This document shows, in pieces, positions 25,929-64,000 of a DNA stretch of 64,000 bases. The stretch is from Parcubacteria group bacterium (GTDB taxonomy: Bacteria > Patescibacteriota > Minisyncoccia > Moranbacterales > UBA2206). The notes below the pieces were generated by a model, which saw nothing but the letters and a program-made list of their open reading frames with translations, had not been told where the DNA came from and searched no databases. Positions within the stretch are counted from its first letter, which is position 1; every line of letters begins with the position of its first letter. Made by a program: the position numbers and the translations under genes. The DNA lies in the NCBI GenBank assembly GCA_041659505.1, contig JBAZYF010000002.1:51966-115965 (forward strand). Reading direction: 5' to 3'.

Positions 25929-25983
25929 TTTTATAAAGTTGTCGGTTTAGTGTCTCCTGACCTGAACCTCCTAATTCTTAGCT

Positions 25984-26028
25984 AGCTGATTAGAAATAAA
26001 AGGTTCAATTCGGGAGAATTGAACCGAC
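25984..26028 (+). repeat. 45-bp repeat with 10-bp-stem hairpin (GGTTCAATTC-GGGAG-AATTGAACC), copy A
   Basis: AGCTGATTAGAAATAAAAGGTTCAATTCGGGAGAATTGAACCGAC; exact inverted copy at 57819-57863. Confidence 0.7.
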
Positions 26029-38711: not shown

Positions 38712-39212
38712 TTAATATAAAACGCTGTATTTCAAGACCACGGAGTTAGTATTGATCTTCTCAATGCTATTTAGCTTCAACTCTGCATCAAAATCACCCT
38801 TAAACAGCGAGAGTCCATCGCCAAATATTTTTGGCTCAATTGTAATCCAGATTTCATCGATTAATTTACGCTCCAAGAAAAGCCCGTTGATAAAAGCGCC
38901 ACCGCCAAGAATCGCCGACTCATATCCCAAGCCTTCCAACTCTCCAATAACCGCTTCTGGCTCGCCCTTGACCCACTTCACGCCTTCAATTGTTTTTGGG
39001 TTTTCTTCCAAAGTGAAAACCACATTCAAACGCTCTTTCAGCGGAGAAGGAAAAGTGAAAAAAGTCTTATCCCCCATGATTACAACACCGGCTTCTTTGG
39101 AAGCTTTTTGAAATAATTTTTTATCCTCTCTGCTTGTCCAATCAGGAAAATGATCGCTGGACTTGGCAATTTTGCCATCCAATGTCATCGCCATCATCAT
39201 TATTACTTTCAT
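38712..39212 (-). CDS. dihydrofolate reductase family protein (DHFR / RibD C-terminal-like)
   Basis: 166 aa, MAMTLDGKIA...VIMGDKTF; sits beside thyA. Confidence 0.55.
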   Translation of the reverse strand: MKVIMMMAMTLDGKIAKSSDHFPDWTSREDKKLFQKASKEAGVVIMGDKTFFTFPSPLKERLNVVFTLEENPKTIEGVKWVKGEPEAVIGELEGLGYESAILGGGAFINGLFLERKLIDEIWITIEPKIFGDGLSLFKGDFDAELKLNSIEKINTNSVVLKYSVLY

Positions 39213-39236
39213 AAATAAAATTCTACTTTAAATTTG

Positions 39237-39827
39237 TTATTTATTCCAATCACTTGATCGATATCTATTCTGCTTCGAATTTGCATGCCAACTATTTACA
39301 TCACTAAGATAAATTTCCTTAAAGATTTTTTTAGCAGTATTTGTAAACAATTTCGGAGGAATCACTTTCTTTCGCCCCCCTACTTTTGATTGAAAGATTT
39401 TTTCATTAGCATCTTTTTGCTCCATCAGCTCCAAATCTATGTCTAGATTATCTGCGTCTTTGACAATTTTTGCTTCAATCGTTTCTCTTTTTTCCATTTC
39501 TTTGAACAGTTCCATGAATTCTTTTTCAAAAGTAGTCCCAGCGAGCGTGTCCTGGACTGCTTGTTCTTCATTTCTTTTGACATATTGTCGCGACATATAG
39601 TCCACATCCATCGACCGGCTTTCGGAAATATCATGGGAAAGTGCCAGTTTCATTATCCGTTCATGGTTACCCCTTTTTTCTTTCTTGGCGATGAGAAGGG
39701 CCAGCCACATTACCCGAAAGGTATGCTCCGTGTCGTTAGCTACTTTGGTCAAAAAAAACCGCTGCCAAGCCCTTTGCATAAATCTCATCCGTCCCACTTC
39801 AAACAAAAAATCGATATCCCTTTGCAT
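39237..39827 (-). CDS. HD-domain phosphohydrolase (YfbR-like 5'-deoxynucleotidase)
   Basis: EHTFRVMWLALLIA..LALSHDISES..KDADNLD HD motifs; start trimmed to internal ATG because the longest ORF overlaps divergent thyA. Confidence 0.6.
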   Translation of the reverse strand: MQRDIDFLFEVGRMRFMQRAWQRFFLTKVANDTEHTFRVMWLALLIAKKEKRGNHERIMKLALSHDISESRSMDVDYMSRQYVKRNEEQAVQDTLAGTTFEKEFMELFKEMEKRETIEAKIVKDADNLDIDLELMEQKDANEKIFQSKVGGRKKVIPPKLFTNTAKKIFKEIYLSDVNSWHANSKQNRYRSSDWNK

Positions 39828-39913
39828 TGCATTCAACTTAAAGATTATGTATAATCCATATACTAGCACATTTGGACTAGCCAGTAAACTTGTTAAATAT
39901 TTAACTTCAATAT

Positions 39914-40849
39914 ATGCCAACATTTAGTGACATTGTGCCCATGAAGCCCTTCGCGGAAAGAACGCCAGATGAGCAATATAAAAATATGCTCCGGGATGTT
40001 TTGGAAAACGGTGTAGAAGCAATTTCTCAGCAAGGCACTAACGCCCTAACCAGAATTGGCTCAATTCCGATGCGCTTTAAGCTAGAAAATGGCTTCCCAG
40101 TGATAACCGAACGCAATATGAACCCAACAATGGCCACACTCCCGGTCACAATCTGGCAACAAGCGATTGGCGAGATTTGTGGTTTCATTAACGGCGCTCG
40201 GACTGTCGAAGAATTGGAAAAATATGGTTGTTACTGGTGGGATATGTGGTGTACAGAAAAAAAATGCTCCAAGCGCGGTCTCCCCACGGGAGATTTAGGA
40301 CCAGGCTCATATGGCGCCGCATTTCATGATTTTCCTACGAGCGAAGGAACGCCTTTCAATCAATTTCAACATATCGTTGAACAAATTAAAGAAGAACCAC
40401 AACTGCGAACGCATTTTATCTCTCCCTGGATCCCGCAATACACAGGACGAGGAAAAGGCAAGACCCAAAAAGTAGTCGTTTGCCCATGCCATGGCTGGAT
40501 CAATATCCGCATTGTTAATAATAAGCTCACCCTGCACATGATGCAACGCTCAGGAGACACGCCAATTGGTGTGCCGTCTAATATGGTGCAATATGCCGCC
40601 CTCACAATGATGCTGGCTCACGTCACGGGCACTGAGGCCTATGAATATGTCCACACCATCTCTGACGCCCATATCTTTGTTGATCAAATTTTTGCGGTAG
40701 AAAAAATGCTTGAGCGCGAATCACGACCACTCCCGACAATGAAAATCAATACAGAAAAAACAAATTTATTCGATTTTCGCCGAGAAGATTTCGAACTTTC
40801 TGATTATAACCCACATCCGGGCATCAAAGGCATTCCTGTCGCGATATAA
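39914..40849 (+). CDS. thyA: thymidylate synthase (ThyA family, divergent; Asn at base-specificity position)
   Basis: catalytic CPCH motif, LHMMQRSGDTPIGVPSNMVQYAALTMMLA aligns with ThyA [20 protein letters not shown]. Confidence 0.75.
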   Translation: MPTFSDIVPMKPFAERTPDEQYKNMLRDVLENGVEAISQQGTNALTRIGSIPMRFKLENGFPVITERNMNPTMATLPVTIWQQAIGEICGFINGARTVEELEKYGCYWWDMWCTEKKCSKRGLPTGDLGPGSYGAAFHDFPTSEGTPFNQFQHIVEQIKEEPQLRTHFISPWIPQYTGRGKGKTQKVVVCPCHGWINIRIVNNKLTLHMMQRSGDTPIGVPSNMVQYAALTMMLAHVTGTEAYEYVHTISDAHIFVDQIFAVEKMLERESRPLPTMKINTEKTNLFDFRREDFELSDYNPHPGIKGIPVAI

Positions 40850-40867
40850 AATATTTAAGAAAAATAT

Positions 40868-41359
40868 ATGGCCAGCAAAAAATATACGGAAAAAGAAAAA
40901 AAGGGTTACCTGGATTTCAATCATGCCAGAACCCCAGAACAGATTGAGCTGATGAAAAAAATTGTGGAAGATGGCGTTTGTCCATTTTGCCCAGAATATC
41001 TGCTTAAATATCATCCCAAGCCAATTCTCAAGGAAGGCAAGTGGTGGTATGTTTCAGAGAATATGAGCCCCTATGAAGGCACAAGAGTGCACCTCATGTT
41101 TTTCTATAAAAAACACACTAACCTCACCTCCGAAATTGACCCGGAAGCGGCCAAGGAACTTTTTGAGCTGATTGGTTGGGCAGAGAAGGAATATGAAATG
41201 GAGGGGGGCTCATTTTTCGTGCGCTTTGGCAAAAGCGAATACACTGGCGGAAGTGTCGATCACTATCATGTCCAACTGCTCGTCGGCAATGCCAAGGGAA
41301 CTGACGCAGAATATGACAAATTGAAAGTAAAATTAGGCTACAAAAAGCTCCTAAAGTAA
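40868..41359 (+). CDS. HIT-superfamily protein, GalT/Ap4A-phosphorylase branch (HxHxQ)
   Basis: CPFCP N-terminal motif; GGSVDHYHVQLLVG matches the H-x-H-x-Q form. Confidence 0.5.
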   Translation: MASKKYTEKEKKGYLDFNHARTPEQIELMKKIVEDGVCPFCPEYLLKYHPKPILKEGKWWYVSENMSPYEGTRVHLMFFYKKHTNLTSEIDPEAAKELFELIGWAEKEYEMEGGSFFVRFGKSEYTGGSVDHYHVQLLVGNAKGTDAEYDKLKVKLGYKKLLK

Positions 41360-41374
41360 ACTCGATTTTTCAAA

Positions 41375-41400
41375 GCACCCTGCCATGCAGGGTGTTTTTG
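41375..41400 (+). terminator. rho-independent terminator (CACCCTG-CCATG-CAGGGTG + TTTTT)
   Basis: perfect 7-bp GC stem and T-run 15 nt after the HIT-like gene stop. Confidence 0.6.
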
Positions 41401-41590
41401 GTTGACAAAAGGATGAATATCCGCTATCCTACAGCATAAAGTTCATTAAGAAATATACGCTCAATTCGTCAATAGATTCATGTTGATTGAAGAGTTTATC
41501 ATATTTTTAGTTTGTCGGTTTTTAACCCGAGAAGGATTCAAATGTGAATCCGATTATATTGGTCAAAAACATCTACGAAGGAGACACGAC

Positions 41591-42082
41591 ATGAAGAAAG
41601 AAAATGTGCCCAAAGGAGTTGATTTATCAACGATCCGCTCAAAAAAACAACTCGCAGCAACCCTGTCGGCAGAATGCCCCTGGTGCAAGTCCGATCATGA
41701 CCAGGAAAGTCCCTTGATCATAAATCTGGGACTCGTAAAGATCAGGTACAACGTTTTTGAAAAACCCTCCAGGGATATGTTCATCATTCACACCGTCAAA
41801 CACGTTTCCAGGAGAGAATTAACAAAAGAAGAGGCCTTCCAATTGATTCAGGCAGAAATCTGGCTGCTTGACAACTGGCATTGGGAGATTCAAGGATGCA
41901 GTATTATCCATCGCGTTAATGGTCTCAACTGCAACGCAAGTTCCGTTCCGGACAAGCATTATTTTAAGATGCTCGTGGCACCAGATGGAACCGGCAGCCC
42001 TGTCTACGAAACCTTGTTCAAGGATAACTCACTGGAAGCCGTGGCTCGCCGAAAGGAAAGAGCCGAAAATTTTTTTAAATAA
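41591..42082 (+). CDS. degenerate HIT-like paralog (CPWC motif, histidine triad not conserved)
   Basis: CPWCKSDH and IIHTVKHV resemble the neighbouring HIT gene; triad replaced by DKHYFKM; start placed at MKKEN. Confidence 0.4.
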   Translation: MKKENVPKGVDLSTIRSKKQLAATLSAECPWCKSDHDQESPLIINLGLVKIRYNVFEKPSRDMFIIHTVKHVSRRELTKEEAFQLIQAEIWLLDNWHWEIQGCSIIHRVNGLNCNASSVPDKHYFKMLVAPDGTGSPVYETLFKDNSLEAVARRKERAENFFK

Positions 42083-42112
42083 AAAACACTTACAAAAAAG
42101 CGAGGATGATCC

Positions 42113-42562
42113 ATGAAACGTGCATTTGAGATGGCAACACCGTTGGCCCTGCTGACGCGTGATGAACTCGGGTATTATCTCGGATTAAACCCCCAAAAAC
42201 TCACCGCCCTGAAACTTCTAGGCGAGGACACCGCCGAAAACATTGGTACTTTTTTTGAGGCCTTCGTCAAAGGAAACGCCGTGATAATCCAGATGCCAGG
42301 TAAAGAGGAAAGGGAGTTGTTGTCCGATTTACAATTCCACCCCGCAAGCGATCATCGCCTGGAAAGAAAAGATTTGGCGTTTTTCGATGTCATGCCCGAA
42401 GGAATTTTTTTGACCAAACAAAGCTCAGCGGTTTTCACTTTGATCTGTGAGGCAGGACGAATGTTCTGGAAGCGTGTAGACGGTGGAGAAGACAACGTAG
42501 AAGAAATAACGGAAAGTGTTGTCTTTCTATGCAAACCGGCAAAATCGGCATCAGTCCAATAA
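42113..42562 (+). CDS. hypothetical protein (149 aa)
   Basis: good-length ORF with RBS-like GAGGA upstream; no motif recognised. Confidence 0.4.
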   Translation: MKRAFEMATPLALLTRDELGYYLGLNPQKLTALKLLGEDTAENIGTFFEAFVKGNAVIIQMPGKEERELLSDLQFHPASDHRLERKDLAFFDVMPEGIFLTKQSSAVFTLICEAGRMFWKRVDGGEDNVEEITESVVFLCKPAKSASVQ

Positions 42563-42629
42563 GCTTAACGCTATATCAATAGCAACCACCACCCCCAAGG
42601 ATACTTGGGGGCCATTTTTTTAGAAGGTT

Positions 42630-43529
42630 CTATTTTTCATACGCCACATTCCCCAAATCTTTTTCTTGTGGCAATTCCATATCAACCAAGATTATTTCCA
42701 CCCCTTTTTCTTTCAAGATGCTTTCTCCATCGAGAACTCCATAGCCGATGTTGTAATAAAGTTTTTTGATTCCGCTGTAGGCGATTGACTTGGCGCACGG
42801 CGGGCAAGGAAAGTGGGTCACATAGATGCTTGCCCCCTCAAGACTAATCCCCTGTCTGGCCGCTTCTGCAATAACTGCCGCTTCAGCGTGAATGGCCGTT
42901 GAAAGATCGAGATGCATGCCCTTATGAAAGCCACTGCGCGGATCTCCGTTCACAAATGGCATATGTTCTGACGGAACATGATGATTACAAGCAGAAAGAA
43001 TTATTTCTCCGTCTTTCACAACGACGCTACCAACTCTGCGCCACCAGTCCGAACTCTCTTTCGACGCATCATTAGCCAAAAGCATCAGTTGCTTGTCAAA
43101 CTTAGCTTGTGAAATTTTTATGTCAGGATTGACGGGAAATTCCCGCACAGTATTGTGTTTATCCCAACGTAAAAAAATTGCATCAAAAATCACTTTTTTA
43201 TCGGAAAAATATTCCTTAGCAAGGGTGCGCATAATATCCTCGTTAGGCATGATAATTTCCACTTCTTCCTTCTGGAACTGCTCTAGCTTTTTTTCGTCCA
43301 AAACTCGCACTTCGTCAAAAACCCCTAGAGACTCAACCGCTTTTTGCATCTTTTTTGGATCAAGAGCGCGAATTTCTTTGTAAAGGTAATCAAATTTTGA
43401 AATCAACTCTGACCCAAAAATATAGAGCTGGGCATCTTTATATTTTTCAAAAAAACGCAAATAACCCGCGTGAAGCACTGGGACGTAGGCGATGATTATT
43501 TTCTTTAATTTTTTATTTTCCGTGTCCAT
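42630..43529 (-). CDS. dCMP (cytidine/deoxycytidylate) deaminase with a ~150-aa N-terminal domain of unknown function
   Basis: C-terminal HAEAAVIAEAAR...THFPCPPCAKSI zinc-binding CDA motifs; N-terminal half has no match. Confidence 0.7.
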   Translation of the reverse strand: MDTENKKLKKIIIAYVPVLHAGYLRFFEKYKDAQLYIFGSELISKFDYLYKEIRALDPKKMQKAVESLGVFDEVRVLDEKKLEQFQKEEVEIIMPNEDIMRTLAKEYFSDKKVIFDAIFLRWDKHNTVREFPVNPDIKISQAKFDKQLMLLANDASKESSDWWRRVGSVVVKDGEIILSACNHHVPSEHMPFVNGDPRSGFHKGMHLDLSTAIHAEAAVIAEAARQGISLEGASIYVTHFPCPPCAKSIAYSGIKKLYYNIGYGVLDGESILKEKGVEIILVDMELPQEKDLGNVAYEK

Positions 43530-43541
43530 ATTTTTAGTTTA

Positions 43542-44189
43542 TTACTCTTTTGTAGGATCCTTTTTCTTTTTCTCTTCCTTGATTTCACTTAAGGACCGTT
43601 CAATTGCTTCAAGAATCCGTGGCGTCAATTTTTCCTCTAATTTCTTGGCAGTTGAAATTTGCAAGCGGCGAATTTTGGCGCTAGTGGAAGTAGTTGCTTG
43701 TGGCTCAAGCACGACTATTTTTCCACAAAATTCATTTAATTCTTCCAATTGTTTTTTATTATAAGTTTCTTGGGTGGCGATAAGAACATCCGGCTTCACC
43801 ATTTTTGTCATTTGCCACTTTGGAGCGTTATGTGGTTTCAGAACAACCAAATCGACATAGCGCAAATGCGCCACCATTTCCATTCTTTCATTTTGCGGTA
43901 CAATTGGGCGATCTGGTCCCTTTCTGATCCTAATTTTCTTATCATCATCCACTCCGACCACTAAAATATCCCCGTGCTTTTTCGCTTCCATAAAATATCT
44001 AGCGTGTCCGATATGCACCATATCCCAAGATCCCATCGTGAGAACGATTTTCATTCCTAGTCCCTTGCAATGGCTAATAGCCGCTTCCAATTCCTCGGGA
44101 TCCAAGATGCACTTACCGCCGAATAGTCCCTTGGGTTGAACGATTTTTTCCTTTTCAGTTCCCTTTTCTTTCTTTTTCATTTTACGCAT
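43542..44189 (-). CDS. cytidylyltransferase-like nucleotidyltransferase (TagD/RfaE domain II type)
   Basis: TMGSWDMVHIGHARYF (HxGH) and RYVDLVVL motifs of the CTP-transferase family. Confidence 0.65.
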   Translation of the reverse strand: MRKMKKKEKGTEKEKIVQPKGLFGGKCILDPEELEAAISHCKGLGMKIVLTMGSWDMVHIGHARYFMEAKKHGDILVVGVDDDKKIRIRKGPDRPIVPQNERMEMVAHLRYVDLVVLKPHNAPKWQMTKMVKPDVLIATQETYNKKQLEELNEFCGKIVVLEPQATTSTSAKIRRLQISTAKKLEEKLTPRILEAIERSLSEIKEEKKKKDPTKE

Positions 44190-44229
44190 AGTCTCTTTGA
44201 TTAGCCGATTAATCCAGTCCCCCAGAAAA

Positions 44230-44790
44230 TTATTTCTTTAAATCTTCGATAATTTTATCCACTTGATGATATAACTCCAAAAATGTGCTTTCATTATTAA
44301 CCACGAAATCGGCATAATTTTTCAAATCTTTAATCTGTGATTCAGCTTCTTTTTCATTGTCAGCGACAAACTCCGCATAGGTTTTTTGGGCGTCATCACT
44401 GTTTTCTCTCCGCTTAGTAATGCGATGATAACGAGTGTCCAAGTCCGCTTCGATATAGACCAGCTTAAAACCCGGGAGGCTTTTGAGATATTTGATGTCT
44501 GCCATCCGGCGCACGCCATCAATCACGATCACTTGATGCACATCCGCTTCCACATCATGACAAACTACGCGAGACAAAATGTCACCGTCAAAATTATCCC
44601 GAAAAAGTGTGGAAATTTTTTGCAAATTTTCCCGACTTTCTTCCAGATGCATCCGACGCGCCACATCTCGCAACGATGTTGAAAAGCGATGCGCACTGCC
44701 GTTATGCGTCTCTGTGATATGTTTGGCTATCGTGCCTTTGCCACTGGCAATTTCTCCCGCAATACCTAAGATGATTTTCATGAGTTTCAT
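44230..44790 (-). CDS. P-loop nucleoside/nucleotide kinase-like protein
   Basis: Walker A GIAGEIASGKGT, lid-like DGVRRMADIKYL; small-kinase size. Confidence 0.5.
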   Translation of the reverse strand: MKLMKIILGIAGEIASGKGTIAKHITETHNGSAHRFSTSLRDVARRMHLEESRENLQKISTLFRDNFDGDILSRVVCHDVEADVHQVIVIDGVRRMADIKYLKSLPGFKLVYIEADLDTRYHRITKRRENSDDAQKTYAEFVADNEKEAESQIKDLKNYADFVVNNESTFLELYHQVDKIIEDLKK

Positions 44791-46770: not shown

Positions 46771-47863
46771 TTATACACCACCTTTCAAATATTTCAAATA
46801 GCTTTCCATGAACTCTTTCAAATCGCCTGCCAGAACTTCTTCGACTTGCGCCGTTTCCCATTTTGTCCGATGATCTTTGACTAATTTGTAAGGATGGATG
46901 ACGTAGGAACGGATCTGGCTGCCCCACTCGGCACTGGATTGTTCGCCGCGCAATTTTCTTTTTTCCGCCTCGCGCTCTTCTAGATATTTTTTATGCAATT
47001 TGGCTTTCAAAATTCGCATCGCCTGTTCTTTGTTTTGCAATTGACTCCGTTCATTTTGGCAAGATGCCACAGTTCCCGTCGGCAGATGCGTGATGCGCAC
47101 CGCACTGTCGGTTGTGTTCACGCTTTGCCCGCCCGCCCCACTTGAACGATAAACATCCACCCGCAAATCTTCCAGATTAATTTTCACTTCTTTGATTTCT
47201 CCGATAATCGGCAATACTTCCACCACCGAAAAAGAAGTTTGGCGCAGATTGTCAGAATTAAACGGCGAGAGTCGCACCAAACGATGTGTGCCCATCTCGC
47301 TTTTGAGGTAACCGTAGGCATACGCGCCCGTCACTTCCAAGGTTGCACTTTTGATTCCCGCTTCCTGCCCGCGCGTCTCATCAACCAGCTTCATCTTGAA
47401 CTTATTTTTCTCCCCCCATTTGAGGTACATCCGCAAAAGCATCTCCGACCAATCCTGCGCGTCCACTCCGCCTGCACCGGAATAGATGTTGAGAATCGCA
47501 TCATTATGGTCATATTCACCAGAAAGCAGCGTCTTAAACTCAAGCTCATCTATTTTCTTTTCCATTTCAGTTATTTTTTGCTCCAATTCCTTTTCGTCCT
47601 CGGCAGTTTCCGTCATTCCGGAAAATTCCACCAGCTCATCCAACTCTTTTTCCAAAGTTTCAAAATTTTCCACTTCCAGTTTTAATTCTTCTAGCTCTCG
47701 CATCACAACTGATGCCTGCTGATTATCACTCCAAAAATCAACGGCGCGCGTCTGATCCTCCAATTCTAAAATTCTTTGCTTTTTTTGCGCTAAGTCAAAG
47801 ACAGTCCCGAAGGTTCGGGAGTTTAATTTTTAGTTCAGTAATTTTTTTTACTTCGTTTTCCAT
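46771..47863 (-). CDS. prfB: peptide chain release factor 2 with programmed +1 frameshift (join 47863..47798, 47796..46771)
   Basis: GGQ and SPF motifs; ORF0 MENEVKKITELKIKLPNLRDCL ends at CTT-TGA-C, and the +1 frame joins the 342-codon body. Confidence 0.85.
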
Positions 47864-49279: not shown

Positions 49280-50950
49280 TTAATTATTCCAACTCCAATT
49301 ATAGCTAGGAACTTCGTCTGTAGATGGAAAATATTTATCGACCAAATTTTGTGCGATGGAAACAAACCGCCGTTGAGTTTTATCTTTATTTTTTATTCCC
49401 TTAGCAACTTCATTTTCGGCAAAGCCCATATTTGATTTTTCGCTTCTTTTTGAAATTTTATTTTTCAGCTTCCAGTCAACTAATGCTTTTGTTGGATCTC
49501 CACCCGCATAATACACAATATGTTTTGGCTTAGATTCTGGATGTTGTTGAAAATAATTTTCCCAATATTCAGAAGAAGGTATAGTGTTTTCTGCGAGTCG
49601 ATAGGGATTCAATTCATTTTCTTGAAAGTGTTTCGTTAAAATTTTTTCATATTCTTTCTTTTCATTTTTTGCACCCCATATATTAACCAATTTTTTGCGC
49701 AATTCTTTATCCGCCAAACATTTAGCCGAATCTGTGTTTTTAATTCCATAATCCCTAAACACTTCCTTAATTTTTTCAATTTGTTCCGCTGAATCAAGGC
49801 CATCTGCCTCTTCCGCTTTTCTAACTAAATCTTGAACAAAACCTGGTTTTTCACCAAATCTTGCCAATAATATTTCTTTGATTCCTTCTGACAGCTGAAT
49901 TTCTTTGTTTTGATCTAAATAATACTTTGATCCACTTTCTGCGTCAACCTTTGCATCTTGAGGAATAAACGCGAAACCCGCGTCAAGCGGTAATCCCTTT
50001 TCAATATCCGGCCAAATAAATTGGTCATTATTGCTACTGGTTGATGATAAATTTCCAGAAAATTCATACTGAGAAGCAATCATAGCCGAAGGAAAAGCAA
50101 AAAAAATCTCATTTCCGCTTTCAGAGCCATAAAAACTATCCGCCACTTCTTCGGTAGCAAGATGAATTGCACTTGAATCGGCAAAAGCATGTGGATCTCC
50201 TGTCACTGCCGCGTCAAGATGAACATGTATTCTACCTAATGCAGCATTACGATTCGGACAATCATCAAATTTCAAAAAATTAGCAATAGCCTGCTCCTTA
50301 GTGTTTTCTTGAAGAGCAATGCCAACCGCCGATCTAAGTTCTTTTTTTGCCAATACCACATTCAGCGTGTCACTATGTTCTCCAAGACCTTTTTGATGAT
50401 TACCAAGATTCGCATGATCTCTTACTCCGTGTCTAGTCACATGCGTCAACATCTCACCAGGAAACCGCTGAAGAAGTGTCACATAATCCTCCATTGAAAG
50501 TGAAGACAAATGATCTTCTGTAAAATTTTGAGCAATATCTTCCCTGGAATATGGCATTTCCGCCCATTTCTTTTTTTCTTTAGCATAAAAATCAGCAACC
50601 ATCAGTCTCGTTTCTTCAAGATCCTGCCTACCAGGCATCACTTCTGCGAGCTCATCTTCGATTTGGGATTGTTTGCCAAGTTGCGCATTCAATTCTCCTT
50701 TAATTTTTTTGATTGCAAAAAAATCTTTTATTTTTATAAAAAACGACGCACTATTATGATCTTCAACTTGATCGCGTAAGACTTCCAATTGTTTAACGAT
50801 TTCGCTTTTTTCTTGCTCTTTCTTTTCAACAGCATCCTTATCTTCAAAGTGCTTTTTTCTTTTTTCGCGAATTTCTTGAGCAAGTTGACTTCGTTCTTCC
50901 GGAGATTCCTTTTTCGAAAAATCTCTGATAAATCTTGGTTGTTCATTCAT
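49280..50950 (-). CDS. hypothetical protein (556 aa)
   Basis: long ORF with Lys/Glu-rich coiled-coil N-terminus; no motif recognised. Confidence 0.4.
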   Translation of the reverse strand: MNEQPRFIRDFSKKESPEERSQLAQEIREKRKKHFEDKDAVEKKEQEKSEIVKQLEVLRDQVEDHNSASFFIKIKDFFAIKKIKGELNAQLGKQSQIEDELAEVMPGRQDLEETRLMVADFYAKEKKKWAEMPYSREDIAQNFTEDHLSSLSMEDYVTLLQRFPGEMLTHVTRHGVRDHANLGNHQKGLGEHSDTLNVVLAKKELRSAVGIALQENTKEQAIANFLKFDDCPNRNAALGRIHVHLDAAVTGDPHAFADSSAIHLATEEVADSFYGSESGNEIFFAFPSAMIASQYEFSGNLSSTSSNNDQFIWPDIEKGLPLDAGFAFIPQDAKVDAESGSKYYLDQNKEIQLSEGIKEILLARFGEKPGFVQDLVRKAEEADGLDSAEQIEKIKEVFRDYGIKNTDSAKCLADKELRKKLVNIWGAKNEKKEYEKILTKHFQENELNPYRLAENTIPSSEYWENYFQQHPESKPKHIVYYAGGDPTKALVDWKLKNKISKRSEKSNMGFAENEVAKGIKNKDKTQRRFVSIAQNLVDKYFPSTDEVPSYNWSWNN

Positions 50951-51101: not shown

Positions 51102-53243
51102 TTATTCCGGCATCGTCGCGTTAAGCACAACATCCACCCGCTTTTCATTGAGCGGTATTTTGTTCACAAAAACCGGTGGCCAATATTCCACTTCGGCTTT
51201 TTCAATATTGGAATAAGTTTTCAGATAGTCGGCCAGTTCCTCGCTATTTTTTCCCAAAAGACCTTTTTTTAGATTTGCCAGATCAAGATTCGGTTGCATC
51301 ACGTTTGAAGCATGCATCTTAATCTCAATAGTTTCCGCCTTAAAATCGGGAACCGCTTTCCCATAATCAATAATCACCGACCCAGCATCGATATTAATCT
51401 TTCCATTGCCCGATTTAGAGATTGCAGAATTAGCAATTTTTTTAGCATCACTTTCAAAAAAAACCAACGCACGTACGTGTGCAGAGACCTTAATCTCAAA
51501 ACTATTAGTCGTCTCCCCTTCTGAATTAGACAAGCGATACACTGGCTCCTCGATCGCGATTGCATCATCCAAAATTATCGTACCAGAATCAGCAGAATCC
51601 TTCACTTTTTGCTTGACCGTGCTATTTATTTCCAAAGAAAGCTTATCTTTAGCATCACTGATATCCTTTGCTGTTACGACAGTAACTTCTTCATTTCCAT
51701 CCCCGCCACCTGACATAGCAACGGAAGATTTAGCATAAATCTTGGCGTACTTATCATTTTCGCTGTTTTTAAACCCGGGGATGGAAAAAGTTGTTGCGCC
51801 AATATTATATCCACTCCCCGCCTCGTCGGCTACAACTTCCGCCTCAACTACGCCCGGCTTAACTTCTCCGCTGACGCTGGTTGTTCCGGGAATGGTCACG
51901 CCTTGCACCAAGCGAAACACTTTTTGGTCATCCGTCATAAAGCGAGTCGTAGCCACCAATGGCTGAGGTGAAGAACTGAATTCATTATAAATCGTAATTT
52001 TTCCTTTGGCTTTTTGATTAGAGGCGTTTTTCTTGCCGGTCGCATTGAACGTTTTTGCCACTTCCTCATCGAACTCCAAAAGCTTTGCCGGAATCTCTGA
52101 TTTTTCATAATCAATGCCTTCGCTATTCACATTTCCCAAAAGCTCCATATCAACCGATTTGACTTCTTTTTTGGCTGAAATGGTAATGGTCGCCTTAGGA
52201 ACATACAAATAGGCCACATAAAGCAACCCAGCAGAAAAAGCGATCGCGCCCAAAATTGCCAGCACTCTAAGAAATTTACTGCCTCCACTACCTTTTTGCC
52301 CGCCGGCTTTTTCTGAATAATCCGTTTTATTTTTATCGGAAAAACTATTGGCATAAAAAAACTTTTCCAACTGCTGGTCTCGCGGATCGGTCTTTTTTCC
52401 CGGCGTGGAATTGTCCGGTTCATCTTGAAGATAATTCGGTCTGGTTTTGCTATAGGGAATTGGAAAATCATCCGTTGCTTCCGGTGGAGGCGTCGAAACA
52501 GTCTTTCTCGACATAGGGCGAATTGCACTATTTTGCACACCAAAAGCACCCAGTTCGCCAGCGACCGCCACACGAGTATTTGTCCGCAATGCCACTCTTT
52601 TGGGCACAGCAACAGGACGCGTAGCAACCGAAACGTCCATAGAAGAAATTCTTCCTTTATTGGGAAATCCATCTTCTTGACTATCCGATGCTCGATCAAA
52701 CTCATTTTTTTTATTACTAATTGAATCGCTTGTCAGCACAGGCCTTTCTCCTTTTATTTCTTCCAGCTCCTTCCAGTCATTTTCGCGACTAGTAAAGTTA
52801 TCTGTCTCATTATTGGATACGAAAAAATCCGCCGAACCGATTTTTTCCAATCTTCTTTTATTATACTCATCGGGATTTTCCAATTCAGCTGTTTCAATTT
52901 CTTTTTTCAACTCTCCTTTTTTTGGTTGAAATTTCCGGTTATCCATAGAATCAACAGCCACTTCTTCATAATCATCTTCTACTTTTTGTTGGATAGAAAT
53001 CCCCGCCTTTTGGATCAAAAGCTTTCCAAGTTTATCTTGAGTGACGATGCTTACCTTCAAACCAAGATTATCCGCCTCCTTACGCAAGAGTTTCAAGTTA
53101 ACGATGCTTTGGATCAGCAAGGCTCTTTTTGGTACGACAAGTACCGCTTCCGGCGCCTCGGCCTTTCTGAGCTTTTCCACGATCGAAGTTATTTCTTCAT
53201 CGATGTCGATATAAAATGTCTGATGCATATATGTCTGAACCAC
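51102..53243 (-). CDS. hypothetical bitopic membrane protein (cytoplasmic N-domain, low-complexity linker, TM, large extracytoplasmic domain)
   Basis: 713 aa; single TM (FLRVLAILGAIAFSAGLLYVAYLYV) mid-protein; co-oriented behind the FtsA-like gene. Confidence 0.45.
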   Translation of the reverse strand: MVQTYMHQTFYIDIDEEITSIVEKLRKAEAPEAVLVVPKRALLIQSIVNLKLLRKEADNLGLKVSIVTQDKLGKLLIQKAGISIQQKVEDDYEEVAVDSMDNRKFQPKKGELKKEIETAELENPDEYNKRRLEKIGSADFFVSNNETDNFTSRENDWKELEEIKGERPVLTSDSISNKKNEFDRASDSQEDGFPNKGRISSMDVSVATRPVAVPKRVALRTNTRVAVAGELGAFGVQNSAIRPMSRKTVSTPPPEATDDFPIPYSKTRPNYLQDEPDNSTPGKKTDPRDQQLEKFFYANSFSDKNKTDYSEKAGGQKGSGGSKFLRVLAILGAIAFSAGLLYVAYLYVPKATITISAKKEVKSVDMELLGNVNSEGIDYEKSEIPAKLLEFDEEVAKTFNATGKKNASNQKAKGKITIYNEFSSSPQPLVATTRFMTDDQKVFRLVQGVTIPGTTSVSGEVKPGVVEAEVVADEAGSGYNIGATTFSIPGFKNSENDKYAKIYAKSSVAMSGGGDGNEEVTVVTAKDISDAKDKLSLEINSTVKQKVKDSADSGTIILDDAIAIEEPVYRLSNSEGETTNSFEIKVSAHVRALVFFESDAKKIANSAISKSGNGKINIDAGSVIIDYGKAVPDFKAETIEIKMHASNVMQPNLDLANLKKGLLGKNSEELADYLKTYSNIEKAEVEYWPPVFVNKIPLNEKRVDVVLNATMPE

Positions 53244-57818: not shown

Positions 57819-57863
57819 GTCGGTTCAATTCTCCCGAATTGAACCTTTTATTTCTAATCAGCT
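57819..57863 (-). repeat. 45-bp hairpin repeat, copy B (inverted relative to copy A)
   Basis: minus strand reads AGCTGATTAGAAATAAAAGGTTCAATTCGGGAGAATTGAACCGAC, identical to 25984-26028. Confidence 0.7.
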
Positions 57864-57883
57864 AAATTAAACTGGATATTTTC

Positions 57884-63392: not shown

Positions 63393-64000
63393 TTTCTTTT
63401 TTTTGAACAATATTACTATTATGCCTCTTTTCTTTCCAAAAAACAAGCGTCAGTAGCGAAAAAAAGATTGCCCCAAGCGAGATGATTCCGCCCAAGTATA
63501 GATAACTTTGCGGGCGATAATATAGGCTCAGTGCTGTACGACCATCATTATCCTTAGCGCAAGCATCAGCTATCTCGCGCGGGTAAATGAGGAATGCATT
63601 TAGCCCGGCATCAGTCATCTTGTGATTTTCCACCGGCAAGATCGCTTTTTTTCCCAGCAGCGCATACCAAGGAGTATTGCCACAAACTACCTGCCAATCC
63701 GGGTGATATTTTTCCGCAAAATTGACCCGGACCGGACCGTCAAAATTTTTGAGCCTAAAATCCCAGTGCGCCGAATTTTCCAGGGAATAGTCCACCGGCG
63801 CAAAAGTAATCTCGCGATGGATCGTCTCTGGCTCGTCTGTCAGATAAATCCGCGGACGCGCCGTCTCGTTTTCAAAAATCGTTTTTTCTCCAAGCCCCAA
63901 GTCCAGCTTTTTCCATTCAGGATTAGCGACAAGATTTTTCACCATATAAAAATTTGCTTGATCACTCACGAGATAGCGCACCGCGGACTGTGAAAGCAAG
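63382..64000 (-). CDS. C-terminal part of a large membrane protein, YfhO-like (partial; runs off the window)
   Basis: extracytoplasmic region ending in a C-terminal TM (YLYLGGIISLGAIFFSLLTLVFW); pairing with the GT2 recalls the CsbB-YfhO system. Confidence 0.45.
   Translation of the reverse strand, partial: LLSQSAVRYLVSDQANFYMVKNLVANPEWKKLDLGLGEKTIFENETARPRIYLTDEPETIHREITFAPVDYSLENSAHWDFRLKNFDGPVRVNFAEKYHPDWQVVCGNTPWYALLGKKAILPVENHKMTDAGLNAFLIYPREIADACAKDNDGRTALSLYYRPQSYLYLGGIISLGAIFFSLLTLVFWKEKRHNSNIVQKKENAK

What the first reader, a model, noticed from the sequence alone, without database searches (positions are those of the whole stretch)
38712..44790. Nucleotide-metabolism island: DHFR-like, HD phosphohydrolase, divergent ThyA, two HIT-like genes, fused dCMP deaminase, cytidylyltransferase, P-loop kinase
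The neighbourhood covers dCMP to dUMP to dTMP chemistry: a dCMP deaminase, a ThyA-family enzyme with the uracil-specifying Asn, a DHFR-like protein, and a small kinase. Around them sit unexpected extras. These are a YfbR-like HD 5'-deoxynucleotidase, a GalT-branch HIT protein (HxHxQ), a degenerate HIT paralogue, a TagD-like cytidylyltransferase and a 149-aa unknown. The dCMP deaminase also carries an N-terminal ~150-aa domain I cannot place. The gene set resembles phage nucleotide-pool-remodelling modules (ThyA homologue, dNMP kinase, dCMP deaminase, DHFR). It is bounded by a MITE copy. It could be a salvage pathway for an auxotrophic organism, or a module producing a modified pyrimidine nucleotide.
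Basis: partly seen in the sequence, partly recalled or inferred. Interest (0 to 1): 0.55.

Follow-up and report, generated by a model that had tools for sequence, protein, structure and literature searches.

The report
Conserved Patescibacteria thymidylate-synthesis gene cluster
This is not a mobile or phage-like island but the chromosomal thymidylate (dTMP) supply locus that ultra-small Patescibacteria share across the phylum, and its core always includes two unexplained partners, a HIT-family enzyme and a cytidylyltransferase-like enzyme.

Summary
All nine genes exist at the stated coordinates. The window comes from a Candidatus Moraniibacteriota chromosome.

In 80 related Patescibacteria loci, fetched through the HIT gene, a four-gene core recurs while the flanking genes change:
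- ThyA followed by HIT on one strand.
- Cytidylyltransferase-like g8 followed by the two-domain dCMP deaminase g7, convergent to them. The g8 stop and g7 start overlap (median -3 nt).

DHFR (57 loci, three times fused to HIT), SHMT (41), dUTPase (31) and Tmk (13) join the core in varying positions. The locus is therefore housekeeping dTMP supply.

ThyA looks like a real thymidylate synthase but lacks two of the four phosphate-binding arginines. R127 is Thr in 72/72 clade members. Published mutant and Vibrio data show this position tolerates substitution.

The deaminase's unplaced N-domain is a degenerate cytidylyltransferase fold (HxGH changed to HxGY). g5 is a degenerate HIT paralogue. g5 and g6 are strain-variable inserts, and the MITE is a recent insertion.

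No phage relatives, integrase or compositional anomaly were found. What HIT and g8 do remains inferred. They most likely form and cleave a (d)CMP-level nucleotidyl species that feeds the deaminase and ThyA.

The parts
38712..39212 (-). g1: dihydrofolate reductase (RibD_C/DHFR type), 166 aa
   Evidence: Pfam RibD_C 1.3e-18 and DHFR_1 8.8e-11, both above the gathering score. phrog_316 DHFR 1.3e-11. A DHFR-type gene is found in 57 of the related loci, at varying positions.
39237..39827 (-). g2: HD-domain phosphohydrolase, YfbR-like 5'-deoxynucleotidase type (196 aa; the open frame runs on to 39923)
   Evidence: Pfam HD_3 5.5e-19 and YfbR-like 1.8e-10. The gene caller on the source contig gives 196 aa. 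It is an accessory gene, present in only 7-9 related loci.
39914..40849 (+). g3: ThyA thymidylate synthase, 311 aa, with a reduced phosphate clamp (Q39 and T166 in place of E. coli R21 and R127)
   Evidence: Pfam 7.5e-66. Best solved relative is a TS at 4.8e-48, aligned full length to the C-terminal PVAI. C192/H193, R212, S213, D215, N223, H253, E87, W109 and Y133 are conserved. R127->T in 72/72 clade members and R21 is lost in 64/72.
40868..41359 (+). g4: HIT-family nucleotidyl hydrolase/transferase ('HIT1'), 163 aa. CPFC at residues 38-41 and HYHVQ at 132-136.
   Evidence: 237 homologues, mostly unnamed or called HIT/Ap4A hydrolase, from Patescibacteria. The family profile hits solved HIT proteins at 3.8e-5 and GalT at 1e-3. 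It sits directly downstream of ThyA in related loci, with a median gap of 27 nt. It is fused to DHFR in L013, L014 and L039.
41588..42082 (+). g5: degenerate HIT paralogue. The start is uncertain: the ORF opens at 41480 and the gene caller starts at 41777. It keeps CPWC, but the nucleophile His is replaced (H-Y-F-K).
   Evidence: An iterated profile started from g5 converges on the HIT family. The alignment with second HIT genes of 35 loci shows that most keep HxHx[H/N/Q]. The g5 type matches the degenerate second half of tandem HIT fusions in L008, L011 and L015. It is absent from the closest relative L003.
42113..42562 (+). g6: rare 149-aa protein of unknown function, an accessory gene
   Evidence: No hit in Pfam, NCBIfam, PHROGs or PADLOC. 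Only 5 clusters among 1.84 billion representatives. A 36%-identical homologue again lies between a HIT-like gene and the convergent deaminase. Absent from L003 and L004.
42592..42611 (.). GC-rich hairpin followed by a T-run between the two convergent operons (terminator-like)
   Evidence: Stem of 8 pairs, 6 of them G-C, then a T-run. The scan as a whole is not enriched over shuffles, so this is only suggestive.
42630..43109 (-). g7 C-terminal domain (about residues 141-299): zinc dCMP-type deaminase, HAE at 214-216 and PCPPC at 241-245
   Evidence: Pfam dCMP_cyt_deam_1 1.8e-18. The profile hits solved dCMP deaminases (4p9c 2.5e-21, T4 1vq2 1.4e-20).
43110..43529 (-). g7 N-terminal domain (residues 1-140): degenerate cytidylyltransferase-like (HUP Rossmann) domain. 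H20-A-G-Y23 replaces HxGH. FLRWD at 119-123 is invariant.
   Evidence: AF2 model pLDDT 83. Foldseek top hits are TagD 2b7l/1coz and the Fom1 cytidylyltransferase domain (E 6e-3 to 1e-2, probability 1.0, TM 0.5-0.6), followed by PanC, NadR and PPAT. The two-domain length of 254-314 aa is kept in 75 of 76 related loci.
43542..44189 (-). g8: intact cytidylyltransferase-family nucleotidyltransferase, 215 aa (HIGH at 59-62, TSTS at 167-170)
   Evidence: Pfam CTP_transf_like 4.8e-19. NCBIfam rfaE domain II scores 105.7 bits, below its cut-off of 181.5. Solved relatives: ECT 2.6e-17, HldC 2.5e-14, TagD 1.2e-7. 57-86% identical among the listed database homologues and 32-87% across the related loci. 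Its stop overlaps the g7 start in related loci, median -3 nt over 64 loci.
44230..44790 (-). g9: P-loop (d)NMP-kinase-like protein, 186 aa. It is not thymidylate kinase.
   Evidence: NCBIfam PRK08356 1.4e-25, below cut-off. Solved relatives are the archaeal AdkA-like/UPF0200 proteins at 1.5e-11. phrog_139 dNMP kinase 1.5e-21. Present in 15-18 related loci. A true Tmk (PF02223) is a different neighbour, seen in 13 loci.

Best explanation
The region is the chromosomal, vertically inherited thymidylate-supply locus of a Moraniibacteriota (Patescibacteria) genome.

**Shown**
- A four-gene core is conserved across the phylum amid changing flanks: ThyA->HIT on one strand, and cytidylyltransferase-like g8 -> two-domain dCMP deaminase g7 on the other, convergent.
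- DHFR, SHMT, dUTPase, Tmk, a dNMP-kinase-like protein and an HD nucleotidase join the core in varying combinations.

**Inferred from family membership**
- g7 deaminates a dCMP-level nucleotide to the dUMP level.
- ThyA methylates dUMP with methylene-tetrahydrofolate to give dTMP and dihydrofolate.
- g1 (DHFR) regenerates tetrahydrofolate.
- g9 or Tmk phosphorylates the product.
- g2 trims surplus dNMPs.

**Inferred from gene coupling only**
- g8 keeps the catalytic HxGH and TSTS motifs and is translationally coupled to g7. It probably takes (d)CTP, releases pyrophosphate, and hands a (d)CMP-level species directly to the deaminase. That species could be free dCMP or a dCMP-X conjugate.
- The N-terminal pseudo-cytidylyltransferase domain of g7 either pairs with g8 (enzymes of this fold are dimers) or holds or senses the cytidine nucleotide.
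- The HIT enzyme or enzymes are coupled to ThyA and are sometimes fused to DHFR. They probably cleave a nucleotidyl phosphoanhydride or conjugate, so that free dUMP (or dTMP) is delivered to, or released from, the thymidylate cycle.

The net effect would be conversion of dCTP, the reductase product in organisms without de novo pyrimidine synthesis, into dTMP.

g5 and g6 are strain-variable accessories. The MITE is a bystander.
For: **Synteny**
- 80 loci from Moraniibacteriota, Paceibacteria, Kaiser-, Campbell-, Adler-, Uhr- and Saccharibacteria, WWE3 and others carry ThyA immediately upstream of HIT. They carry g8-g7 convergently wherever the contig reaches that far.
- Flanking genes differ between loci: gatB/miaA in 8-12 loci, L11/NusG in about 39, ArgRS in 28.

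**Coupling**
- The g8 stop and g7 start overlap, median -3 nt over 64 loci. The ThyA-to-HIT gap has a median of 27 nt.

**Thymidylate theme**
- DHFR is found in 57 loci, and there are three DHFR-HIT fusions.
- SHMT 9e-152, dUTPase 6e-20 and Tmk 2e-18 are recurrent neighbours.

**ThyA is a thymidylate synthase (TS)**
- All catalytic and uracil-binding residues and the C-terminal A-I/V are conserved.
- Loss of the R127 equivalent is compatible with TS activity. Vibrio TS has Gly there naturally, and L. casei R179A/T/K/E mutants are active (PMC6005164).

**g7 and g8**
- The g7 N-domain has a cytidylyltransferase fold with HxGY.
- g8 is closest to ECT, HldC and TagD and has intact motifs.

**Not mobile**
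- GC content is normal and no tRNA is adjacent.
- There are no IMG/VR relatives.
- The only PADLOC hits are partial, to the dCTP-deaminase defence model for g7 and g9 plus weak kinase-model hits for g9. The other seven proteins hit nothing.
Against: - No experiment or curated family supports any specific substrate for g8 or for the HIT proteins. Automatic annotations call g8 a heptose-1-phosphate adenylyltransferase.
- Gene order places HIT with ThyA rather than with g8/g7. A simple 'make dCMP' role for HIT does not predict this.
- dUTPase is often in the same neighbourhood, so a separate route through dUTP may already supply dUMP.
- The loci were chosen through the HIT gene. The analysis therefore shows that HIT implies the module, not that every Patescibacteria ThyA has it.
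- Homology between the N-domain and g8 is weak at the sequence level (hhalign probability 5.6%). The fold match has modest scores.
Confidence: 0.55

Rival explanations
1. Carrier-linked thymidylate synthesis. g8 attaches dCMP from dCTP to a phospho-acceptor X, giving dCDP-X or another dCMP-X diester. g7 deaminates the conjugate while its pseudo-cytidylyltransferase domain holds the handle. ThyA methylates the dUMP-X conjugate. The HIT enzyme finally releases dTMP by hydrolysis, or dTDP by phosphorolysis. Free dUMP and dUTP would never accumulate.
For: - Gene order matches pathway order in both operons: g8->g7 with overlapping stop and start, and ThyA->HIT.
- ThyA has lost two of the four arginines that clamp the dianionic phosphate. 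T166 is invariant in 72/72, and the clade has a conserved basic insertion (window Y-T-G-R-G-K-G-K-T-Q-K) after that position.
- The HIT family switches between HxHxH and HxHxQ. It also forms GalT-like tandem fusions with one dead half, an architecture typical of NDP-X transferases and phosphorylases.
- Nucleotide 'handle' chemistry by this fold is known, for example the Fom1 cytidylyltransferase domain that appears among the fold hits.
Against: - The two lost arginines are exactly the two that mutagenesis shows to be dispensable in ordinary TS. A natural Vibrio TS lacking R127 still uses dUMP (PMC6005164).
- Tmk and dUTPase are frequent neighbours, which argues for free dTMP and dUTP pools.
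- No acceptor X can be named.
- Nothing was tested biochemically.
Confidence: 0.12
2. HIT and g8 are unrelated housekeeping genes that merely share an operon with the thymidylate genes. For example, g8 could be a sugar- or alcohol-phosphate nucleotidyltransferase for envelope polymers, and HIT a generic Hint-type phosphoramidase. The deaminase N-domain would be only an allosteric (d)CTP/dTTP sensor.
For: - g8 scores best against rfaE domain II, ECT and TagD models and is so annotated by pipelines.
- The HIT profile matches Hint-type structures best.
- dCMP deaminases are classically regulated by dCTP and dTTP (established knowledge), so a nucleotide-binding add-on domain could be regulatory.
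Against: - The linkage persists across very divergent Patescibacteria lineages while all other neighbours change.
- The g8 stop and g7 start overlap in most loci.
- A g8-like fold is fused into the deaminase itself.
- HIT is fused to DHFR in three loci.
- g8 fails the rfaE equivalog cut-off, scoring 105.7 against 181.5 bits.
Confidence: 0.2
3. One reading: a mobile, phage-like module that remodels the nucleotide pool or makes a modified pyrimidine for DNA, with the ThyA homologue acting as a hydroxymethylase and the kinase and transferases elaborating the base.
For: - The members individually resemble phage nucleotide-metabolism families: PHROG TS, DHFR, dCMP deaminase and dNMP kinase.
- A MITE copy abuts the kinase gene.
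Against: - Synteny is phylum-wide in chromosomal contexts.
- DHFR and SHMT are linked to the module. Dihydrofolate is produced only by a methylating TS, not by a hydroxymethylase, so DHFR is needed only in that case (established knowledge).
- The C-terminal A-I/V and the TS catalytic set are intact.
- There are no IMG/VR relatives of the HIT protein or the N-domain.
- There is no adjacent tRNA or compositional shift, and no integrase among the genes called around the region.
- The MITE is absent at this site in relative L004.
Confidence: 0.03
4. An anti-phage nucleotide-depletion system of the dCTP-deaminase type (kinase-like plus deaminase).
For: The PADLOC dCTPase model hits g7 (9.6e-20, deaminase motif region only) and g9 (1.7e-11, kinase part). 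The NCBIfam antiphage_deaminase model gives 1.5e-17.
Against: - The score is 63.6 bits against a cut-off of 400.
- g9 and g7 are separate genes, and g9 is present in only 15-18 of the loci.
- Conservation is universal and the module is embedded in the thymidylate cycle, unlike the patchy distribution of defence genes.
Confidence: 0.02

Closest known systems
Classical thymidylate cycle gene sets (thyA with folA and glyA; bifunctional DHFR-TS of protozoa and plants)
   Same: ThyA, DHFR and, in relatives, SHMT are clustered. A fusion involving DHFR also occurs in this module.
   Different: The fusion partner of DHFR here is a HIT protein, not TS. The invariant partners of ThyA are a HIT enzyme, a cytidylyltransferase-like enzyme and a two-domain dCMP deaminase, and none of these belongs to the textbook cycle.
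Vibrio/VAAP-clade thymidylate synthase with Gly at E. coli Arg127' (PMC6005164)
   Same: Natural loss of the fourth phosphate-binding arginine in an otherwise canonical ThyA. The paper shows such an enzyme is an active TS with a raised Km.
   Different: Here the residue is an invariant Thr across the clade. Arg21 is also lost in most members, so only two arginines remain. An 8-10 residue basic insertion follows. No kinetic data exist.
dCTP pyrophosphatase -> dCMP deaminase -> TS axis (human DCTPP1-DCTD-TYMS, listed as PMC7162842; E. coli deoxycytidine pathway with YfbR, from my own knowledge of Weiss 2007)
   Same: The logical need is the same: turn dCTP into a monophosphate that a dCMP deaminase and TS can use. 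A YfbR-like HD nucleotidase (g2) is present.
   Different: The proposed dCTP-cleaving step would be carried out by a cytidylyltransferase-fold enzyme and/or a HIT enzyme instead of a MazG-type all-alpha pyrophosphatase. This is inferred, not shown.
Cytidylyltransferase family (TagD, CCT, ECT, HldC/RfaE domain II, Fom1 cytidylyltransferase domain)
   Same: g8 has the fold signature, HxGH and the (R)TxxxSTS motif. The g7 N-domain has the fold.
   Different: g8 fails the rfaE and TagD equivalog cut-offs. The g7 N-domain has lost the second catalytic His (HxGY) and is fused to a deaminase. I found no description of that architecture in the searchable literature.
HIT superfamily: Hint/Fhit hydrolases and GalT/Ap4A-phosphorylase transferases
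   Same: A CxxC element plus the HxHx(H/Q) nucleotidyl-histidine motif. Tandem active-plus-degenerate fusions in relatives mimic the GalT two-half architecture.
   Different: A family-specific N-terminal ARTxEQ helix. The third motif position alternates between Q and H within one orthologous group. Obligate linkage to ThyA.
Phage dNTP-pool modules (T4 td, frd, cd, gene 1) and the anti-phage dCTP deaminase
   Same: The individual families overlap.
   Different: The context is chromosomal and phylum-wide. The distinctive components have no viral relatives. Defence-model scores are far below the cut-off.

Membership tests
Thymidylate synthase ThyA (PF00303) | Whole-protein score above the Pfam gathering score | tested here: met
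   222.4 bits against 24.3. TIGR03284 scores 185.8 against 108.35.
Thymidylate synthase ThyA (PF00303) | Catalytic Cys-His, Glu58, Tyr94, Arg166-Ser167, Asp169, the uracil-specifying Asn177 and His207 | tested here: met
   C192, H193, E87, Y133, R212, S213, D215, N223 and H253 in the window protein. All are invariant in 72 clade members.
Thymidylate synthase ThyA (PF00303) | Four arginines clamping the dUMP phosphate (E. coli R21, R126', R127', R166) | tested here: not met
   R21->Q39 and R127->T166. T is found in 72/72 members and R21 is kept in only 8/72. The literature shows both positions tolerate substitution, so this lowers 'typical' status, not TS function.
Thymidylate synthase ThyA (PF00303) | C-terminal hydrophobic residue that closes over the folate, and co-occurrence with DHFR | tested here: met
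   The protein ends ...PVAI. The clade ends in A-I/V. DHFR is found in 57 related loci.
dCMP/dUMP hydroxymethylase (ThyA paralogues of phages) | Asp at the Asn177 position (dCMP enzymes), phage context, and no need for DHFR | tested here: not met
   Asn is invariant. There are no viral relatives of the module's distinctive components. DHFR and SHMT are linked. No sequence rule separating dUMP hydroxymethylase from TS was available to me, so that sub-question stays inconclusive.
HIT superfamily (g4) | HxHxH/Q nucleotidyl-histidine motif and similarity to HIT profiles | tested here: met
   H132-Y-H134-V-Q136, with H132 and H134 invariant. The family profile matches solved HIT proteins at 3.8e-5. 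The window protein alone does not reach any Pfam model.
GalT branch of HIT (g4) | Gln fixed at the third motif position, and two fused half-domains | tested here: not met
   Q 37, H 32, N 5 across orthologues. g4 has a single domain. Tandem fusions occur only for the second paralogue in some relatives.
HIT superfamily (g5) | Nucleophilic second histidine | tested here: not met
   The motif is H-Y-F-K. Homology to HIT comes from an iterated profile. g5 is therefore a degenerate, probably non-catalytic, member.
dCMP/CMP deaminase (PF00383) (g7 C-domain) | (H/C)AE and PCxxC zinc motifs, and a score above cut-off | tested here: met
   HAE at 214-216 and PCPPC at 241-245. 66.7 bits against 25. The profile hits solved dCMP deaminases at 2.5e-21. 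Substrate (dCMP, dCTP or a conjugate) was not tested.
Cytidylyltransferase family PF01467 (g8) | Score above cut-off, the HxGH motif and the C-terminal (R)TxGxSTS/T motif | tested here: met
   69.3 bits against 21. HIGH at 59-62 and TSTS at 167-170, both conserved across loci.
RfaE domain II / heptose-1-phosphate adenylyltransferase (g8) | NCBIfam equivalog cut-off | tested here: not met
   105.7 bits against 181.5 (TIGR02199). TagD TIGR01518 scores 40.6 against 165.4.
Cytidylyltransferase fold (g7 N-domain) | HUP Rossmann fold with a catalytic HxGH | tested here: inconclusive
   The fold match to TagD and Fom1 has probability 1.0 but E about 6e-3 and TM 0.5-0.6. The motif is HxGY, so the second His is lost. 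There is no Pfam hit. hhalign against g8 gives probability 5.6%.
Thymidylate kinase (g9) | A match to PF02223 or a Tmk equivalog | tested here: not met
   No Tmk hit. The best matches are PRK08356, UPF0200 and phage dNMP kinase. A true Tmk is a separate neighbour in 13 loci.
YfbR 5'-deoxynucleotidase (g2) | Pfam YfbR-like above cut-off, and the NCBIfam equivalog | tested here: inconclusive
   PF12917 scores 41.3 against 25.9, which is met. NF003009 scores 30.1 against 122, which is not met.
Genomic island / mobile element | Integrase or tRNA flank, compositional shift, patchy distribution, bounding repeats | tested here: not met
   GC is 0.40-0.44, like the rest of the window. The nearest tRNAs are at 22 kb and 51 kb. 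The flanks are miaB/miaA/gatB and ftsX/ftsE/prfB. The order is conserved in relatives. The MITE is absent at this site in L004.
Anti-phage dCTP deaminase | Single kinase-deaminase polypeptide reaching the NCBIfam cut-off | tested here: not met
   63.6 bits against 400. The kinase-like and deaminase parts are separate genes, with g8 between them.

The most novel reading that the evidence does not exclude
Patescibacteria make thymidylate on a nucleotidyl 'handle'. The cytidylyltransferase g8 converts dCTP into a dCMP-X conjugate. The deaminase acts on the conjugate, using its pseudo-cytidylyltransferase domain to hold the handle. ThyA, with its reduced phosphate clamp, may also act on the conjugate. 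The HIT enzymes then release dUMP, dTMP or dTDP. This would be a previously undescribed route to dTMP that keeps free dUMP and dUTP low in organisms that depend on scavenged nucleotides.
Probability: 0.15. Interest if true: 0.8.

Novelty: new variant of a known kind. Interest (0 to 1): 0.5.

Why it matters
Patescibacteria (the Candidate Phyla Radiation) are a large fraction of bacterial diversity. They lack de novo nucleotide synthesis and are mostly uncultured. How they obtain dTTP is central to their dependence on hosts.

This analysis turns one odd-looking neighbourhood into a phylum-wide, testable module. ThyA and a dCMP deaminase are always accompanied by a HIT enzyme and a cytidylyltransferase-like enzyme. 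The module also shows:
- a new domain fusion, a pseudo-cytidylyltransferase joined to a deaminase;
- DHFR-HIT fusions;
- a natural thymidylate synthase that keeps only two of its four phosphate-clamp arginines.

If the two accessory enzymes supply or release the pyrimidine nucleotide, they fill a gap in metabolic reconstructions of these organisms, where they are currently annotated as 'heptose-1-phosphate adenylyltransferase' and 'Ap4A hydrolase'. They could also be lineage-specific targets. If they do not, the finding is still a clean correction: the region is housekeeping, not a mobile or DNA-modification island.

Tried and rejected
- **Sequence placement of the deaminase N-domain.** Pfam, NCBIfam and the profile search against PDB sequences gave nothing upstream of residue about 137. 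BLASTP and hhalign against g8 aligned only the HxG(H/Y) stretch (E 0.03; probability 5.6%). Only the AF2 model plus Foldseek placed the domain.
- **Phage or MGE origin.** IMG/VR scans with the HIT profile and with the deaminase profile found no relatives. PADLOC and PHROGs gave only generic family hits.
- **R127->Thr as evidence for a non-dUMP substrate.** I first read the invariant substitution this way. I downgraded it after finding that a Vibrio TS naturally lacks this arginine and that L. casei R179T is active.
- **HxHxQ as a GalT-branch marker.** Rejected, because orthologues alternate between Q and H.
- **The MITE as an island boundary.** Rejected by comparison with L003 and L004.
- **Literature.** Four searches for any description of a ThyA-HIT-cytidylyltransferase-deaminase module in the Candidate Phyla Radiation / Patescibacteria found none. 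The library is incomplete, so this is not proof of absence.
- **A ribonucleotide reductase in the window.** The ten ORFs scanned, among the largest in the window, do not include one.

Full report
**1. What is in the sequence**

The interval 38712-44790 holds nine ORFs in three transcription units.

| Unit | Gene | Coordinates |
|---|---|---|
| Minus strand | g1 | 38712-39212 |
| Minus strand | g2 | 39237-39827; the open frame runs to 39923, and the gene caller on the source contig gives 196 aa |
| Plus strand | g3 | 39914-40849 |
| Plus strand | g4 | 40868-41359 |
| Plus strand | g5 | ORF from 41480; likely start at 41588 or later |
| Plus strand | g6 | 42113-42562 |
| Minus strand, convergent | g9 | 44230-44790 |
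| Minus strand, convergent | g8 | 43542-44189 |
| Minus strand, convergent | g7 | 42630-43529 |

A GC-rich hairpin followed by a T-run sits at 42592-42611, between the convergent ends.

- g1 is RibD_C/DHFR.
- g2 is HD_3/YfbR-like.
- g3 is Thymidylat_synt (7.5e-66).
- g7 is a dCMP-type deaminase on residues 144-259 only.
- g8 is CTP_transf_like.
- g9 is a P-loop kinase-like protein.
- g4, g5 and g6 match nothing in those libraries.

**2. Where the window comes from, and whether this is an island**

- The g4 protein is encoded on a 247-kb ENA metagenome contig with the same gene order.
- The nearest genomes are Candidatus Moraniibacteriota MAGs, 95-96% identical for g4.
- The flanks are housekeeping genes: thrS, miaB, miaA and gatB upstream; ftsX, ftsE, prfB, a ZIP transporter and rubrerythrin downstream.
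- GC content (0.40-0.44) is like the rest of the window.
- The nearest tRNA genes are about 17 kb and 6 kb away.
- In the close relative L004 the kinase-to-ftsX spacer is only about 36 bp and the repeat lies elsewhere. The copy at 44781 is therefore a recent, strain-specific insertion and not a boundary.

**3. Comparative genomics**

I aligned 27 g4 homologues (alignment A1) and used the alignment to fetch 80 loci from one-genome-per-species GTDB contigs. The loci come from Moraniibacteriota, Paceibacteria, Kaiser-, Campbell-, Yonath-, Adler-, Colwell-, Uhr- and Sungiibacteria, WWE3, and many bins labelled Saccharibacteria.

tblastn with all island proteins, plus independent ORF clustering, gave the following:
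- ThyA lies immediately upstream of HIT on the same strand in 79 of the 80 loci.
- The two-domain deaminase is present in 76 loci and g8 in 74. They are always in the order g8->g7 and convergent to ThyA->HIT.
- The few loci lacking them (L022, L041, L067, L070) are contigs that end within about 0.5-2.2 kb downstream of the HIT gene.

Flanking genes vary: gatB/miaA in 8-12 loci, ribosomal L11/NusG in about 39, ArgRS in 28.

Coupling is tight. The g8 stop and g7 start overlap, with a median of -3 nt over 64 loci. The ThyA-to-HIT gap has a median of 27 nt. The loci with gaps of about 500 nt correspond to the 11 in which a DHFR-type ORF lies between or fused.

Variable members of the neighbourhood:

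| Gene | Loci | Note |
|---|---|---|
| DHFR | 57 | Four different positions |
| DHFR-HIT fusion | 3 (L013, L014, L039) | DHFR_1 1.6e-50 |
| SHMT | 41 | 9e-152 |
| dUTPase | 31 | |
| Tmk | 13 | |
| g9-like kinase | 15-18 | |
| F420-ligase-like gamma-glutamyl ligase | 9 | |
| g2 HD | 7-9 | |

The theme is unmistakably the thymidylate cycle. The invariant core is ThyA, HIT, g8 and g7.

One caveat applies. The loci were selected through HIT, so the result is 'HIT implies the module'. It is not a census of all ThyA genes.

**4. ThyA**

The window protein aligns full length to solved thymidylate synthases (best 4.8e-48) and ends in ...PVAI like E. coli TS.

The following residues are invariant in 72 clade members: C146, H147, E58, W80, Y94, Q165, R166, S167, D169, N177 and H207.

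The deviations are:
- R127->Thr in 72/72 members.
- R21 lost in 64/72 (Gln in the window).
- Y209->Phe in the window and 7 other members.
- A conserved basic insertion after the R126/T127 position (YTGRGKGKTQK in the window).

I first read the lost arginines as a hint of a modified phosphate on the substrate. The literature weakens that reading (PMC6005164). Vibrio TS naturally has Gly at this position and is an active dUMP-methylating TS with a higher Km. L. casei R179A/T/K/E mutants retain activity.

Together with the DHFR and SHMT linkage, g3 is best called a genuine thymidylate synthase with a relaxed phosphate clamp. Dihydrofolate arises only in the methylating reaction, which is why that linkage matters.

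**5. The HIT genes**

g4 belongs to a family of about 150-165-aa proteins. The family has an invariant CPFC, an N-terminal ARTxEQ helix and an SVxHxHx(Q/H) motif. Its profile matches solved Hint-type HIT proteins at 3.8e-5 and GalT at 1e-3. The third motif position is Q in 37, H in 32 and N in 5 orthologues, so HxHxQ is not a branch marker here.

A second HIT paralogue follows g4 in 35 of 76 loci and usually keeps HxHx(H/N/Q).

In L008, L011 and L015 this second paralogue is fused to a third, degenerate HIT-like half, which resembles the GalT two-half architecture. The window's g5, with motif H-Y-F-K, is of this degenerate type.

g5 and g6 are accessory:
- The 1.2 kb holding them (41409-42624) is replaced by about 23 bp in the closest relative L003 and by about 340 bp in L004.
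- g6 has only four other clusters among 1.84 billion representatives.
- One of these homologues again sits between a HIT-like gene and the convergent deaminase. g6 is therefore a rare but real rider of this module.

**6. The deaminase and g8**

The C-terminal half of g7 has HAE and PCPPC motifs and matches solved dCMP deaminases (2.5e-21).

The N-terminal 140 residues are conserved in all orthologues. Invariant positions are P17, V18, H20, G22, Y23, K51 and F119-L-R-W-D123.

AlphaFold models of the full protein (pLDDT 82) and of the N-domain alone (pLDDT 83) give a five-stranded alpha/beta Rossmann-like domain. Foldseek against the PDB ranks glycerol-3-phosphate cytidylyltransferase (2b7l, 1coz) and the Fom1 cytidylyltransferase domain first. 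These hits have E 6e-3 to 1e-2, probability 1.0 and TM 0.5-0.6. Pantothenate synthetase, NadR and PPAT follow, and all are HUP-class nucleotidyltransferases.

The H20-x-G-Y23 motif lines up with the HxGH of g8. The N-domain is thus a cytidylyltransferase-like domain that has lost the second catalytic histidine.

g8 itself is intact. HIGH and TSTS are conserved. Its closest solved relatives are ECT, HldC and TagD. It is 57-86% identical among the listed database homologues and 32-87% across the related loci. It falls below the rfaE-domain-II and TagD equivalog cut-offs, so the pipeline name 'heptose-1-phosphate adenylyltransferase' is not established.

**7. g9, g2 and g1**

- g9 resembles archaeal AdkA-like/UPF0200 proteins (1.5e-11) and phage dNMP kinases (phrog_139 1.5e-21). 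It is not Tmk.
- g2 is a YfbR-like HD phosphohydrolase. From my own knowledge (Weiss 2007), E. coli YfbR is the dCMP phosphohydrolase of the deoxycytidine route to thymidylate. This fits the theme but was not tested here.
- g1 is a DHFR-type reductase.

**8. Mechanism**

*Shown:* gene content, motifs, folds, synteny, coupling and fusions.

*Inferred from family membership:* dCMP-level nucleotide -> (g7) dUMP -> (g3, with methylene-THF) dTMP plus DHF -> (g1) THF. Phosphorylation is by g9 or Tmk, and pool trimming by g2.

*Inferred from coupling only:*
- g8 cleaves the alpha-beta bond of (d)CTP and passes a (d)CMP-level species to g7.
- The pseudo-cytidylyltransferase domain of g7 pairs with g8 or holds or senses the cytidine nucleotide.
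- The HIT enzymes cleave a nucleotidyl conjugate or anhydride at the ThyA step.

I put 0.55 on this overall statement. That breaks down to about 0.75 or more for 'conserved housekeeping dTMP locus' and about 0.3 for the specific g8 and HIT roles.

Rivals:

| Rival | Confidence |
|---|---|
| HIT and g8 are hitchhiking housekeeping genes | 0.2 |
| Fully carrier-linked pathway in which ThyA also acts on the conjugate | 0.12 |
| Phage-like or DNA-modification island | 0.03 |
| Anti-phage dCTP depletion | 0.02 |

**9. Novelty**

Every enzyme family is known, and the pathway theme is textbook. The following appear to be undescribed in the literature I could search:
- the obligate four-gene core;
- the pseudo-cytidylyltransferase-deaminase fusion;
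- the DHFR-HIT fusions;
- a TS clade with only two phosphate-clamp arginines.

I rate this as a new variant of a known kind, interest 0.5.

Noticed in passing
It has internal inverted symmetry and a core GTCATTCCCGC(A/G)AAGGCGGGAATCCAGG. The copy at 36964 supplies the last ~15 codons and the stop codon of the miaA ORF (...RVIPAKAGIQAPQA). The copy at 44781 is absent at the same site in relative L004, which carries the repeat elsewhere.
   Followed up: partly
window 25983-26028 and 57819-57864: A perfect 46-nt inverted repeat whose arms lie 31.8 kb apart. Its origin and meaning are unknown.
   Followed up: no
window 47794-47800 (minus strand), upstream of the prfB ORF 46771-47763: The RF2 gene has the classical programmed +1 frameshift site CTT TGA C, about 60 nt downstream of an ATG at 47863. 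The 330-aa ORF listed mechanically is therefore only the second frame of prfB.
   Followed up: partly
L013 9512-10474, L014 9491-10465, L039 5183-6196: Single polypeptides that fuse a canonical FolA-type DHFR (DHFR_1 1.6e-50) to the ThyA-linked HIT protein. The fusion links HIT to the thymidylate cycle.
   Followed up: partly
L008 11269-12222, L011 8039-9028, L015 8639-9517: Tandem HIT-HIT proteins in which the first half keeps HxHxH and the second half is degenerate. This is a GalT-like two-half architecture. The window's g5 corresponds to the degenerate half.
   Followed up: partly
9 related loci, e.g. L033 13275-14009: A homologue of F420-0:gamma-glutamyl ligase (PF01996, 1.2e-28) recurs just beyond g8 in the thymidylate neighbourhood. 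These organisms are not expected to make F420, so it may instead polyglutamylate folate.
   Followed up: no
window 42113-42562 (g6); L083 359-814: g6 belongs to a very rare family, with 5 clusters among 1.84 billion representatives. A distant member occupies the same slot between a HIT-like gene and the deaminase, so its position is conserved although its function is unknown.
   Followed up: partly
window 49280-50950, 51102-53243, 61740-63446 (all minus strand): Three large ORFs (556, 713 and 568 aa) with no Pfam match at E <= 1e-5.
   Followed up: no
window 16449-18038 (minus strand): A full-length MCRA-family (oleate hydratase-type) protein at 9.6e-189. This is an unexpected lipid-modifying enzyme for a reduced Patescibacteria genome.
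   Followed up: no
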